A stretch of 58,267 nucleotides of DNA. Source: Promethearchaeati archaeon. Lineage in GTDB: Archaea > Asgardarchaeota > Heimdallarchaeia > Heimdallarchaeales > Heimdallarchaeaceae. The notes under the pieces were generated by a model. It saw only the letters and a list, made by a program, of their open reading frames with translations. It did no database searches and was not told the DNA's origin. The stretch spans positions 1-58,267 of the forward strand of contig JABLTJ010000021.1 in assembly GCA_013166775.1 (NCBI GenBank). The letters run 5' to 3'. This document shows positions 99-8,424 of the stretch, piece by piece. Within the stretch, counting starts at the first letter, position 1. Each line of letters opens with the position of its first letter. Both the position numbers and the translations under genes were made by a program.

Positions 99-1611
<1,513 letters not shown>

Positions 1612-4933: not shown

Positions 4934-4978
4934 AGTTAGCTGACAAGAACTCTCCAAGAAGGCGAAAACTGATTTCTA
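4934..4978 (+). other. 5' arm of the 23S pre-rRNA processing stem with a BHB-like motif (pairs with 8371..8416)
   Basis: AGTTAGCTGACAAGAACTCTCCAAGAA-GGCG-AAA-ACTGATTTCTA is a near-perfect inverted repeat of TAGAAATCGGT-T-CGTC-AGA-TTCTTGGAGAGTTCTTGACAGCTAACT. Confidence 0.85.
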
Positions 4979-4984
4979 GAGTAA

Positions 4985-7900
4985 CCTACACTATGCATAC
5001 GCCATGTAGTGGATGACTTGGCTAGGGAGCCGATGAAGGGCGCGGTAAGCGGCGAAACGCTATGGGGAGACGCAGACAGTCTACGATCCATAGATTCCCG
5101 AATCGGATTTCCGGTTATGGCTTAATAAGCTGTAACAGCCAGAAATGGCGGGGAACGCAGGGAACCAAAACATTCAAGTACCTGCAGGAAAAGAAAGCAA
5201 TTGCGATTCCGGTAGTAACGGCGAGTAAAACCGGAAGAGATCAAACCGAATTCCCTTTTCGAAAGATTAGGGCAGATGTGGTGTTTTTGACTACAATATA
5301 GACCGTCAGTGTGAAGTCGAAAATCCCTGGAAAGGGATGCCGTAGAGGGTAATAGCCCCGTAGACGTAAGCACCCGGCTTAGTAGTATCAAGACTAGTGT
5401 GGCTTGGATGTGTCGCACAAAGTCGGGAGAACTAACTCCCAAATCTAAATACTCCCCTAGACCGATAGTGCACTAGTAACGTGAGTGAAAGTTGAAAAGT
5501 ATTCGAAGTCCGAGAGTGAAAAGTGCCTGAAACTACATGGTAACAGACGTGGATGGCTTGAAAGGGTAGAGTCTCGACGAAGGAACCCATCGCAAGGTGG
5601 TAGTACGAGTCGAGAGGACCAGAGTCATCCGTTCCGTCTCGAAACACGGGCCGAGGAGTTCAGGTTTGTGGCAAGCTTAAGCGAAAGCGGTAGCGTAGCG
5701 AAAGCAACCGGCGCGCAGCTTCGGCAAGGCGCGACGTCCGATAAGGGCGTGAAGTCACAGGTCTGAGACCCGAAAGCAGTTGATCTATCCCTGGCCAAGA
5801 TGAAGCGCTTCGAAAGGAGCGTGGAGGTCTGAAGGGGTATTGATATGCAATTCATTCCCATGAGTTGGGGATAGTGGCAAAAGACCAATCTAAACTGCTG
5901 ATAGCTGGTTCCCTCCGAAGTATCACCACAGGATAGCGCTGCTGGAGGTTGCATGTGAGGTAGAGCTACGGACGGAAGGTCCTGGGGAGTGAAATCCTCA
6001 CCCTTCCTTCCAACTCCGAACTTGCATGCGCCGTAGAAGGCGGCAGACGGGCGTGTATCCGCAAGGGATATGGCCGAAAGGGGAACAACCCTACAATGGG
6101 TTAAGGGCCCTAAATCCCGGTTAAATGTTAAACTGAATGGCGTCCAACGACTAAGACAATGAGGCGGTAAGCTTAGAGGCAGCTATCCGTTAAAAAAAGC
6201 GTAACAGCTTACTCATCGAGTTGTTGGGCCCAGAAAATGGACGGGGCTAAACCGGGTCCCGATACCCATTTGGACTCTAAAAGAGTCTCAGGTAGGAGGG
6301 CGATCGGGTTGGGCAGAAGCTGGGGAGTGATTCCCAGTGGACCGACCTGATTTGCAGATCTCGGTGGTAGTAGGAGCATAGTGAGGTGAGAATCCTCATC
6401 GCCGAAAGCCCAAGGGTTCCTTGGCACTGTTCGTCAGCCAAGGGTTAGTCGGTCCTAAGGTCGGCCTTAACACGAGCCGATCGAAAGGGAAACAGGTTCA
6501 TATTCCTGTACCACGCATATAGGTGTGGCAACACAAGCTTTGAGCTAACGCTGGTGGGTAGGTGGCCTAGGAGAATATCCTAGTTAAATGTAGAATTCTG
6601 GGGAGAACCGTTAAGGTGAGAACCAGACGAATGTATGAAGAGGCTGGCCATAGGTTGCTGGCTGCCATCAATCCCAACAGCCCGTGAAAAGGCAAAAAGA
6701 ACGATTATGCGTGTCCGTACCCAGAACCGACACAGGTGTGGCTAGCTTAGAAGGCTAAGGCGTGTTAGGGGAGCTCGGGTGAAGGAAATCGGCAAATTAG
6801 TCCCGTACCTTGGGTATAAGGGATGCCTGGAGAGGTGCAAGCCTCACCAGGTCGCAGTGACTAGGGGCACCCGACTGTTTAATAAAAACATAGCAAACTG
6901 CAAGGGCGAAAGCCTGAGTACAGTTTGTGAATCCTGGCCGGTGCCGGTGCTTGAAACCTGGGTTCAACCAGGCTAAGACCCGGTAAACGCCGGAGCTAAC
7001 TATGAGCTTCTTAAGGTAGGCAAATGCCTTGTCTGCTAATTACAGACGTCCATGAAGGGACCAACGAGGTGCCCACTGTCTCCACCCGAAGCCTACTGAA
7101 CCCACAGTCCAGCGAACAGTCTGGAACGCACCATCGGGAAGAGAAGACCCTGTGGAGCTTTACTGCTGTCAGGGGCTGTTGTATTGGTGTGCATGCATAG
7201 CATAGTCAGGAGATGCTGATCCTACATTCTCCGGGATGTAGGGGAGTCGAACTTGAAATACTGACCTTGTGCATTGGTACGACTTACCTCTTGCGAGGGG
7301 GACACCCCCTGCCTGGCAGTTTCACTGGGGCGGTAGCCTCTTGAAAAGATATCAAGAGGGCCCAATGCCGAGCTCAACCGGGACAGAAATCCGGTGTAGA
7401 GTGCAAGGGCAAAAGCTCGGTTGACTGTGAACTTAACAATATGGTTCGCAGATGTTAACGCAGGGCCTAGCGATCCTCCGTATTGTCCTTAGTAGACGAC
7501 GGAGGTGGCAGAAAAGTTACCCCAGGGGTAACTGCGCTTCGAAATAATCACGTAGAAGTGCTCTCAACTGGGTAACGCTTATATCTAATTTCCATCTTTT
7601 CAAAAAGGCAGAGTTGAAATAGCTCCTGTCTTCAAATTTCCGTTTGTGAGGAATTCAAGTTTTCGCCATATTGGCCAATAATAGACTTGAGCAGAAAGGA
7701 TCCTATATCTGTCTGAAATCCAACCATTATTAATTAATGGAAAATCCCGAATGAACATGATGGAGAGCCAATAAGCGTGAGGAAACCGATAGATCGAAGG
7801 ATTGGTAACTTGCCTGATTAACAGGTTGACAACTGATCCATAAGATCGATGTGCCTTCAGGCACAAGCGCAGCCCTGAACAGAGTTGTCGTGGGTAAGAG

Positions 7901-8365
7901 TTCACATCGACCTCACGGCTTGCTACCTCGATGTCGGCTCTTCCTAGCTTGGTGGTGATTCAGCCGCCAAGAGTGGGGTTGTTCGCCCATTAAAAGGGAA
8001 CGTGAGCTGGGTTTAGACCGTTGTGAGACAGGTCGGATTCTATCTGATGGTGCTGACGGGTGATTGAGAGTAAAGTCTCCACAGTACGAGAGGAACAGGC
8101 GGCTGGGGCCTCTGGTGTACCGGTTGTCCTTCCGGGCATTGCCGGGTAGCTAAGCCCTCGACGATAAGAGCGGAATGCATCTACGCTCGAAGCGTCTCTC
8201 GAAACGAGTCACCCATTCTGCAGCGATATAAGGGGACTGGCGACAGTAACCTTTGTTGTAGACGAGGGCGCGGAAAGAAGATCCGTTTGATAGAGTGGGG
8301 GTGTACGCGTCGAGCTTCGGCGAGATGTTTAGCCCACCACCACTAACTGCTCAAGCGTAGTTAGG
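4985..8365 (+). rRNA. rrl: 23S rRNA (archaeal), containing a 348-nt intron
   Basis: Conserved motifs GACCGATAGTG, GATAGCTGGTT, CTTAAGGTAG, CCTCGATGTCGGCT and sarcin-ricin AGTACGAGAGGAAC; helix 1 CCTACACTATGC/GCGTAGTTAGG. Ends are approximate. Confidence 0.98.
7531..7878 (+). other. 348-nt BHB-type intron in the 23S peptidyl-transferase loop (E. coli 2450/2451)
   Basis: GGGG-UA^A-CUGCGCUU ... AAGCGCAG-CCCU-GA^A. Removal gives CCAGGGGUAACAGAG. Confidence 0.85.
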
Positions 8366-8415
8366 CCAAATAGAAATCGGTTCGTCAGATTCTTGGAGAG
8401 TTCTTGACAGCTAAC

Positions 8416-8424
8416 TTTTTTTTT
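8416..8424 (+). terminator. T-run terminator of the 23S transcript
   Basis: T9 immediately after the 3' processing-stem arm. Confidence 0.55.

What the first reader, a model, noticed from the sequence alone, without database searches (positions are those of the whole stretch)
7531..7878. 348-nt BHB intron between A2450 and A2451 of the peptidyl-transferase centre
Seen: the insert ends close a perfect 8-bp helix (CUGCGCUU/AAGCGCAG) stacked on a 4-bp GGGG/CCCU helix with 3-nt bulges UAA and GAA. EndA-type cleavage gives CCAGGGGUA|ACAGAG, restoring the PTC loop. As with the 16S intron, the outer exon helix is missing, so both introns share the same relaxed geometry. Inference: both ribosomal subunits would depend on EndA/RtcB splicing at core functional sites, and the endonuclease should accept relaxed BHB substrates.
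Basis: partly seen in the sequence, partly recalled or inferred. Interest (0 to 1): 0.78.

Follow-up and report, generated by a model that had tools for sequence, protein, structure and literature searches.

The report
Enzyme-spliced intron in Heimdall 23S catalytic centre
The only large-subunit ribosomal RNA gene of this Heimdall-group (Asgard) archaeon is split exactly at the ribosome's catalytic adenines by a 348-base, protein-free intron of the known archaeal kind that the tRNA-splicing enzyme cuts out; it is real and shared by its whole family, but it is a familiar mechanism in a new lineage and place.

Summary
Observation confirmed. Window 7531-7878 is a 348-nt insert in the 23S gene (4985-8366, +) between E. 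coli A2450 and A2451. Its ends form the described motif: 4-bp GGGG/CCCU helix, 3-nt bulges UAA and GAA on opposite strands, 8-bp inner helix, no outer exon helix.

All 17 informative genomes of the clade holding Ca. Heimdallarchaeum and Heimdallarchaeota AB_125 carry a homologous intron (335-423 nt) at this site. Four of the eight inner-helix pairs show compensatory changes. Sister families read the predicted ligated sequence GGGGUAACAGAG without interruption.

Two public 23S-only contigs from unsampled relatives lack the intron. They are also circularly permuted at the processing-stem bulges, the signature of cDNA from EndA/RtcB-processed rRNA. No Rfam family other than LSU rRNA, so no group I model, matched at E<=10. 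Two natural variants fit only the bulge-helix-bulge (BHB) cut. There is no ORF or homing-endonuclease remnant.

The genome has two EndA paralogs, one A. pernix-like catalytic subunit keeping the specificity-loop lysine, plus RtcB. RNA from this organism itself could not be examined.

This scan has already met the same intron family in other Heimdall genomes. Verdict: a new member of a known kind. The conserved intron fold and two invariant exon-complementary blocks remain unexplained.

The parts
4985..8366 (+). 23S rRNA gene (host gene), 3382 nt against a 2987-position model
   Evidence: Rfam RF02540, 2522 bits, full model
7525..7528 (+). exon-1 strand (GGGG, E. coli 2445-2448) of the central 4-bp helix H
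   Evidence: sequence; 100% paired in 16 distinct sequences
7529..7531 (+). 5' bulge UAA; predicted cut between 7530 and 7531
   Evidence: sequence; G004 has UAG here and still yields GGGGUA on a BHB cut
7531..7878 (+). the intron, 348 nt, no ORF
7532..7539 (+). 5' strand (CUGCGCUU) of the inner helix h'
   Evidence: 4 of 8 pairs with compensatory changes
7804..7810 (+). GGUAACU; its GUAACU is the longest invariant block of the intron; complementary to exon 1 7515-7521 (AGUUACC)
   Evidence: alignment A2; pair counts; not beyond chance in shuffles of this window
7826..7834 (+). UUGACAACU, nearly invariant block complementary to exon 2 7883-7890 (AGUUGUCG)
7851..7864 (+). terminal hairpin GUGCC-UUCA-GGCAC stacked next to h'
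   Evidence: 95% paired, 2 pairs with double changes
7865..7872 (+). 3' strand (AAGCGCAG) of the inner helix h'
7873..7876 (+). intron strand (CCCU) of the central helix H
   Evidence: CCCC in G027
7877..7879 (+). 3' bulge GAA; predicted cut between 7878 and 7879; not closed by an outer helix
   Evidence: sequence; variants GUA (G025) and AAA (G004) still give exon 2 = AC(A/G)GAG
4935..4990 (+). 23S leader strand of the processing stem, with its own BHB bulge (AAA 4965-4967)
   Evidence: cofold; the circular junction in L036 equals the predicted ligation 8388->4967
8360..8420 (+). 23S trailer strand of the processing stem, with bulge AGA 8387-8389
126..158 (-).

Best explanation
This is an archaeal bulge-helix-bulge (BHB) intron in the single 23S rRNA gene of a Heimdall-group Asgard archaeon, inserted between E. 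coli A2450 and A2451.

Proposed mechanism. In the precursor, exon residues G2445-G2448 pair with CCCU at the intron's 3' end. The first and last eight intron residues after and before the bulges form helix h'. This presents two 3-nt bulges four base pairs apart. The splicing endonuclease is two 185-aa subunits, one of them a crenarchaeal-type catalytic subunit with the specificity-loop lysine. It cuts after the second nucleotide of each bulge. RtcB then joins the exons to give GGGGUA-ACAGAG, and probably circularises the intron. The exon G-run is then free to take up its mature place in the peptidyl-transferase centre.

Origin. The intron has no protein gene and has been inherited vertically since the ancestor of the Heimdallarchaeum/AB_125 family.

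What is shown: the motif, its covariation, the same-site conservation, the intron-less junction in relatives and in RNA-type contigs, and the presence of the enzymes. What is inferred: cleavage by EndA, ligation by RtcB, and circularisation of the intron in this organism.
For: Motif and coordinates.

Conservation: a homologous intron sits at the identical site in 17 of 17 informative family genomes. Named records include Ca. Heimdallarchaeum aukensis PM71, Ca. H. endolithica PR6 and Heimdallarchaeota AB_125.

Covariation: inner helix 98% paired, with compensatory changes in 4 of 8 pairs.

Discriminating variants: G004 (bulges UAG and AAA) and G025 (3' bulge GUA) restore the conserved GGGGUAAC only if cut after the second bulge nucleotide.

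Ligated junction in relatives: sister families f3, f4 and f7 read CAGGGGUAACAGAG uninterrupted.

RNA-type contigs: an exact scan for the ligated junction with family-specific flanks found no hit in 185,579 species genomes and two metagenome-collection contigs. Both are 23S-only, 88-97% identical to the window, and lack the intron. Both join the 3' trailer to the 5' leader. In L036 the join is exactly where the processing-stem BHB predicts it. The two contigs have different break points, which fits a circular RNA template.

Enzymes: two EndA paralogs carry both Pfam endonuclease domains. The first aligns to the A. pernix catalytic chain with Y, H and K kept and K41 aligned to K44 of the CSL. 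RtcB scores 536 bits.

Literature: only (alpha-beta)2 and epsilon2 enzymes cut non-canonical motifs (PMC5829648 abstract). The CSL lysine confers this (PMC3241643).
Against: The two intron-less contigs come from other, unsampled species. Their genomic state is inferred, and their origin as cDNA is deduced from their circular permutation, not from metadata.

The outer helix of the canonical motif is absent.

A competing exon hairpin (GUUACCCC/GGGGUAAC) is more stable than the BHB in a short mini-substrate.

The second EndA paralog does not clearly align its histidine with the catalytic position, and subunit assembly is untested.
Confidence: 0.9

Rival explanations
1. A group I self-splicing intron at the classical L2449 site. 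Shifting the boundary by one base gives a 5' exon ending in U and an intron ending in G, and the size and conserved inner blocks look ribozyme-like.
For: In 15 of 17 sequences the alternative boundary U|AAC...CCCUG|AAC obeys the U/omega-G rule. The interior has a conserved fold. Group I introns do occur in archaeal LSU genes (PMC6125680).
Against: No Rfam hit other than LSU rRNA at E<=10 with permissive filters on either strand. The intron's own 5' and 3' ends pair with each other with covariation, which group I introns do not do. I saw no internal guide sequence near the 5' end able to pair with GGGGU. In G004 the intron would end in A. In G025 a group I cut would change A2450 to U. The archaeal group I sites reported are LSU 1923, 1931, 2500, 2593 and SSU 1498, not 2449 (PMC6125680).
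Confidence: 0.02
2. An intervening sequence that is cut out but not religated, leaving a 23S in two pieces; or an expansion segment that stays in the mature rRNA.
For: Fragmented rRNAs exist in other organisms (general knowledge). No RNA of this organism was seen.
Against: L036 and L037 read continuously across the junction without the insert. An insert between A2450 and A2451 would disrupt the catalytic loop (established ribosome structure). RtcB is present.
Confidence: 0.03
3. Same splicing chemistry, but the intron is more than a passenger. Its conserved core acts in cis as a guide that grips both exons (GGUAACU with exon 1, UUGACAACU with exon 2), standing in for the missing outer helix. 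Alternatively, the excised circle is a stable functional RNA.
For: The core GUAACU of the first block is the longest invariant run of the intron, and the second block is nearly invariant. Both are complementary to exon residues placed symmetrically, 3 nt outside the BHB. 92.6% of cells pair, against 21-46% when slid. One pair shows C-G to U-A double changes in 3 sequences. The interior fold has 19 pairs with double changes, against 4-11 in slid controls.
Against: The exons do not vary, so most of these pairs say nothing. 5 of 16 sequences break the one variable pair. Duplex energies in this window are not beyond dinucleotide shuffles (110 and 134 of 1000 shuffles as good; sum 65 of 1000). The same intron blocks can instead pair within the intron's own hairpin. 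The unrelated helix-89 introns show no consistent two-exon guide.
Confidence: 0.25

Closest known systems
BHB introns of crenarchaeal 23S/16S rRNA genes (Desulfurococcus mobilis 23S intron, Kjems and Garrett 1985; two short introns of Staphylothermus marinus 23S; ORF-less and remnant 16S introns of Thermoproteales, PMC4496867; overview in PMC3608112)
   Same: An insert in a highly conserved rRNA site. Exon-intron boundaries fold into two 3-nt bulges 4 bp apart. Removal is by the tRNA-splicing endonuclease and ligase. ORF-less forms exist.
   Different: The host is an Asgard (Heimdall) archaeon. The site is A2450/A2451, and I found no paper reporting an archaeal intron there in the held library. 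The outer helix is absent. The interior keeps a conserved fold across five genera of one family.
Relaxed (HBh'/hBH, BHL) pre-tRNA introns cut by (alpha-beta)2 and epsilon2 EndA (PMC3241643, PMC5829648, PMC6379350)
   Same: One flanking helix of the motif is missing. The host has a two-subunit EndA whose catalytic subunit carries the CSL-type loop with the key lysine.
   Different: The substrate is a 3.4-kb pre-rRNA, not a tRNA. The enzyme's range was not assayed here.
Group I intron at LSU position 2449 (yeast mitochondrial omega intron; from memory) and archaeal group I introns (PMC6125680)
   Same: Practically the same insertion point in the catalytic loop. Similar length. The boundary can be drawn as U| ... 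G|.
   Different: No ribozyme core was detected. The ends pair as a BHB. Natural variants break the group I boundary rule.
Processing-stem BHB and circular 23S rRNA of archaea (PMC12918454)
   Same: Same enzymes and same bulge rule. The window's own leader and trailer form such a stem, and relatives' contigs show the circular junction.
   Different: That event releases and circularises the rRNA. The intron event removes an internal piece and rejoins the rRNA.

Membership tests
Archaeal BHB (EndA-dependent) intron | Two 3-nt bulges on opposite strands separated by a 4-bp helix at the exon-intron boundaries | tested here: met
   GGGG/CCCU with bulges UAA and GAA; kept in 16 of 16 distinct sequences
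Archaeal BHB (EndA-dependent) intron | Inner helix h' closing the intron | tested here: met
   8 bp, 98% of cells paired, 4 pairs with compensatory changes
Archaeal BHB (EndA-dependent) intron | Outer exon-exon helix h (canonical hBHBh') | tested here: not met
   A7524 faces C7880 and no adjacent pairing exists. This places it in the relaxed class, not outside the family.
Archaeal BHB (EndA-dependent) intron | Cutting after the second bulge nucleotide restores the conserved host sequence | tested here: met
   GGGGUAACAGAG equals the uninterrupted sequence of sister families and of L036/L037. The rule also holds for the bulge variants in G004 and G025.
Archaeal BHB (EndA-dependent) intron | Host encodes splicing endonuclease and RtcB ligase | tested here: met
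   PF01974 + PF02778 in two 185-aa proteins; RtcB 536 bits
Archaeal BHB (EndA-dependent) intron | Spliced rRNA and excised (circular) intron seen in RNA | tested here: inconclusive
   Intron-less, circularly permuted 23S contigs of related species.
Group I intron | Conserved P3-P7 ribozyme core detectable by covariance model | tested here: not met
   No hit other than LSU rRNA at E<=10, both strands. Only Rfam's models were available; no subgroup-specific group I models (as used in PMC6125680) were on hand.
Group I intron | 5' exon ends in U paired to an internal guide; intron ends in G | tested here: not met
   Possible in 15 of 17 sequences. G004 would end in A, and G025 would yield a mutated A2450. 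I saw no guide sequence near the 5' end.
Mobile archaeal intron with homing endonuclease | LAGLIDADG ORF inside the intron | tested here: not met
   No conserved ORF. tblastn with a Heimdall LAGLIDADG protein gave only one 15-residue match, at E=1.6.
(alpha-beta)2 splicing endonuclease with broad specificity | Two non-identical subunits; catalytic subunit with Y/H/K triad and the CSL lysine | tested here: met
   Alignment to the A. pernix chain 3p1z_B: triad kept, K41 aligned to K44 (PMC3241643). The second paralog is nearest to M. kandleri, M. jannaschii and ARMAN-2 chains, with NEQ261 a weaker match. Its histidine is not aligned. Assembly and activity cannot be tested here.

The most novel reading that the evidence does not exclude
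The intron is a self-guiding BHB intron. Its two most conserved blocks pair with exon 1 and exon 2 just outside the bulges, replacing the missing exon-exon helix and holding the exons for RtcB. That would be a functional analogue of the group I internal guide inside an enzyme-cut intron, and splicing would act as a late checkpoint that keeps the catalytic centre unformed until the subunit is assembled.
Probability: 0.2. Interest if true: 0.8.

Novelty: new member of a known kind. Interest (0 to 1): 0.5.

Why it matters
It shows that in the archaeal lineage usually placed nearest to eukaryotes, the single 23S gene cannot yield an active ribosome without the tRNA-splicing endonuclease and RtcB. 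The intron separates the two catalytic-loop adenines.

Other features of this genome use the same machinery:
- the 16S mini-intron (sequence read here);
- the BHB processing stem and the circular 23S seen in relatives' contigs;
- further rRNA introns in relatives;
- BHB elements that earlier notes of this scan report in the same genome (permuted 5S, an mRNA intron, T-loop tRNA introns), none of which I tested.

Together they suggest unusually broad use of protein-dependent RNA splicing in Heimdall archaea.

Practically, it explains over-long or broken 23S genes in these MAGs and matters for rRNA annotation and phylogeny. Ca. Heimdallarchaeum enrichment cultures exist (PMC8813620), so the predictions can be tested at the bench.

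Tried and rejected
- Group I or any other Rfam family in 7300-8100 at E<=10: nothing but LSU.
- ORFs or a homing-endonuclease remnant in the intron family: none.
- A second copy of the intron in the own genome: none.
- Homology between this intron family and the helix-89 (2477/2478) introns of sister families, or the RNA-type contigs: none by nhmmer at E<=10.
- The same site in other Asgard classes: no intron-length match outside the family among 399 genomes. The few pairs of exon matches listed for other classes abut directly, for example G112, G114 and G115.
- C/D-box reading of AUGAUGG...CUGA: rejected, because the boxes are not conserved in relatives (alignment).
- Two-exon guide as a general rule: not reproduced in the unrelated helix-89 introns, and not beyond chance in shuffles of this window.
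- Metadata for contigs Ga0316596_1006408 and OVMT01000040: no paper found.
- Papers that might list archaeal 23S intron positions (PMC3064391, PMC50826): not held. 'No published intron at 2450/2451' therefore rests only on the searches that ran.

Full report
**What is there**

Rfam places an archaeal 23S rRNA gene at 4985-8366 (+) and a 16S gene at 99-1611 (-). The 23S is 395 nt longer than the model. The alignment around the finding shows one large unaligned block inside the conserved GGG(A/G)UAAC-AGAG stretch of the peptidyl-transferase loop.

Reading the sequence gives:
- exon 1 ending ...CCCCAGGGGUA at 7530;
- the insert at 7531-7878;
- exon 2 starting ACAGAGUUGUCG at 7879.

In E. coli numbering, reckoned from my memory of the E. 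coli sequence and checked against the known A2503/U2504/G2505/U2506 register, this is between A2450 and A2451. AAC is repeated at both edges. The DNA alone therefore allows four equivalent boundaries, and the RNA motif picks one.

**The motif**

G7525-G7528 pair with C7873-U7876 (helix H). UAA 7529-7531 is a bulge. CUGCGCUU 7532-7539 pairs with AAGCGCAG 7865-7872 (helix h'). GAA 7877-7879 follows CCCU on the 3' strand.

That is the canonical order for a bulge-helix-bulge (BHB) site, with the bulges on opposite strands 4 bp apart. Cutting after the second nucleotide of each bulge gives GGGGUA + ACAGAG. No helix continues outward, since A7524 faces C7880, so this is the relaxed form lacking the exon-exon helix.

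Cofolding the two ends in about 43-nt context returns exactly H + h'. In a shorter construct an exon hairpin (GUUACCCC/GGGGUAAC) wins, so there is real competition for the G-run.

**Comparative evidence**

The genome is a 3.85-Mb, 89%-complete MAG. A homologous insert sits at the identical site in 12 genomes found with the intron alone. It is also present in five more divergent family members found with flanks. That makes 17 of 17 family genomes in which this part of the 23S is assembled. Three further genomes have contigs that end next to the site, and 11 lack the region.

Record titles name the clade: Ca. Heimdallarchaeum aukensis PM71, Ca. H. endolithica PR6, Heimdallarchaeota AB_125 and other 'Heimdallarchaeota archaeon' MAGs. 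The two closed genomes match those of PMC8813620.

Intron lengths run from 335 to 423 nt, and mean column identity is 56%, against near-identical exons. On this alignment the inner helix is 98% paired, and 4 of its 8 pairs show compensatory double changes (G-C to A-U, C-G to U-A). Sliding the 3' partners by 1-3 columns drops pairing to 28-54% over the three helices counted together.

Two natural variants discriminate between cut rules. G004 has bulges UAG and AAA, and G025 has a 3' bulge GUA. Only the BHB cut gives the conserved GGGGUAAC in both. A group I-type boundary (U| ... G|) would leave an intron ending in A in G004, and would turn A2450 into U in G025.

**The ligated sequence exists in nature**

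Sister families of the same order and class read CAGGGGUAACAGAG without interruption. One genome of a further family has no intron here and reads GGGGAUAACUGAG.

I then scanned for the predicted ligated junction with family-specific flanks (a 47-mer). There was no hit in 185,579 species genomes, but two contigs in the metagenome collection matched: L036 (2737 nt) and L037 (3013 nt, marine sediment).

Both contigs are 23S-only and 88-97% identical to the window's 23S. Both lack the insert. Both join the 23S trailer directly to the leader, and their break points differ.

The window's own leader (4935-4990) and trailer (8360-8420) fold into a long processing stem with a BHB. The ligation product predicted from its bulges (8388 joined to 4967, reading ...GUCAG-AACUGAU...) is exactly the junction in L036. 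L037 joins trailer to leader at the equivalent place with its own junction sequence.

A circular template cut and joined at BHB bulges is what circular archaeal 23S rRNA looks like (PMC12918454). I therefore read these contigs as cDNA of processed rRNA from unsampled relatives, in which the intron has been removed precisely as predicted.

This is strong but indirect. It is not this species, and the libraries' nature is deduced, not documented.

**Enzymes**

The genome has two 185-aa proteins, each with both tRNA-intron-endonuclease domains.

- The first is closest to the catalytic chains of the heterotetrameric A. pernix, S. tokodaii and P. aerophilum enzymes. It keeps the Tyr/His/Lys triad. 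It also keeps the loop sequence (VRKPN against VEKPR) whose lysine, K44 in A. pernix, confers broad substrate range (PMC3241643).
- The second is nearest to M. kandleri, M. jannaschii and ARMAN-2 chains, with the structural subunit NEQ261 a weaker match. It does not align a histidine at the catalytic position.

RtcB is present.

**What it is not**

- No Rfam family other than LSU rRNA matches at E<=10 on either strand.
- No ORF or LAGLIDADG remnant is present.
- The intron is unique in the genome.
- It is unrelated in sequence to the other Heimdall rRNA introns.
- Outside the family, no intron-length match turned up among 399 Asgard genomes, and the few exon pairs listed for other classes abut directly.

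**The interior**

The intron is not free-drifting. It keeps invariant blocks and a consensus fold. 65 predicted pairs are 90% paired, and 19 have double changes, against 4-11 in slid controls.

Earlier notes of this scan on sister genomes proposed that an inner loop grips both exons, and I tested that here. GGUAACU (7804-7810; its GUAACU is the longest invariant run) is complementary to exon 1 7515-7521. UUGACAACU (7826-7834) is complementary to exon 2 7883-7890. Each exon target lies 3 nt outside the BHB.

The complementarity is kept in all 16 distinct sequences (92.6% of cells, against 21-46% when slid). However, the exons do not vary. The one variable pair is compensated in 3 sequences and broken in 5. 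Duplex energies in this window are within the range of shuffles. The same blocks can pair inside the intron's own hairpin. The unrelated helix-89 introns show no such rule. I keep the idea as an open hypothesis at about 0.2-0.25.

**Novelty and score**

Enzyme-cut rRNA introns have been known in Crenarchaeota since 1985 (PMC3608112, PMC4496867). I found no paper describing them in Heimdall or other Asgard 23S genes, or at A2450/A2451. Penev et al. only say that intronic regions were removed. The key older papers could not be read.

This scan has already reported the same intron family in other Heimdall genomes. The verdict is a well-supported new member of a known kind, of moderate interest. 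Its interest would rise if the conserved core proves functional.

Noticed in passing
L020-L031 (sister families f3, f4, f7); equivalent to window 7905|7906: These genomes lack the A2450/A2451 intron but carry an unrelated BHB intron of 68-470 nt, 27 nt downstream (E. coli 2477/2478, helix 89). Example: G032 reads GCUC-ACA-CACAACGAG...CUCGUUGUG-GAGC-AAA. The same cut rule restores AAGAGCUCACAUCGACC.
   Followed up: partly
L004:2019-2168 (G030; also G031, G023, G025, G009): A third BHB intron of about 150 nt between E. coli G2599 and A2600, next to A2602 (UGUG/CGCA helix, bulges AGA and AAA, 11-bp inner helix). It is absent from the window's 23S.
   Followed up: partly
L004:175-851, ORF 268-825 (G030): An insert of about 680 nt in the 23S near E. 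coli ~1780 (CUGUUUAAUAAA|AACAUAGC) encodes a 185-aa LAGLIDADG_3 protein (Pfam E=8.7e-12). Homing-endonuclease introns therefore also occur in Heimdall 23S genes.
   Followed up: partly
window 4935-4990 and 8360-8420; L036, L037: The 23S leader and trailer form a long processing stem with a BHB (bulges AAA 4965-4967 and AGA 8387-8389). Relatives' contigs show the corresponding circular 23S junction.
   Followed up: yes
window 7528 (E. coli 2448): The catalytic loop reads GGGGUAAC (G at 2448) in the window's order and in one genome of a further family (G073). The Rfam archaeal consensus and genome G061 have GGGAUAAC. Some genus members also have G instead of A at 2453 (ACGGAG).
   Followed up: no
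G012:C3:1, G015:C199:33758, G016:C21:26901 (equivalent to window ~7900): Three MAGs of the genus have contigs that end at the same point, 22 nt after the 3' splice site. This may reflect population variation or assembly trouble at the intron.
   Followed up: no
own genome C1:26077-26634 (L014:1267-1824): The second EndA paralog gives a sub-threshold Pfam match to eukaryotic Sen15 (E=0.0044, 17.8 bits against a cut-off of 22).
   Followed up: no
window 99-1611 (-) and 4985-8366 (+): The 16S and 23S genes are divergent and 3.4 kb apart, so they are not co-transcribed. The 16S carries its own 33-nt BHB mini-intron at 126-158 with the same 5' bulge UAA.
   Followed up: partly
window 7515-7533: Exon 1 and the first intron bases can form a hairpin (AGUUACCC/GGGUAACU) that hides the G-run and the 5' bulge. 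It competes with the BHB and is kept in all 12 sequences of the first alignment (A1).
   Followed up: partly
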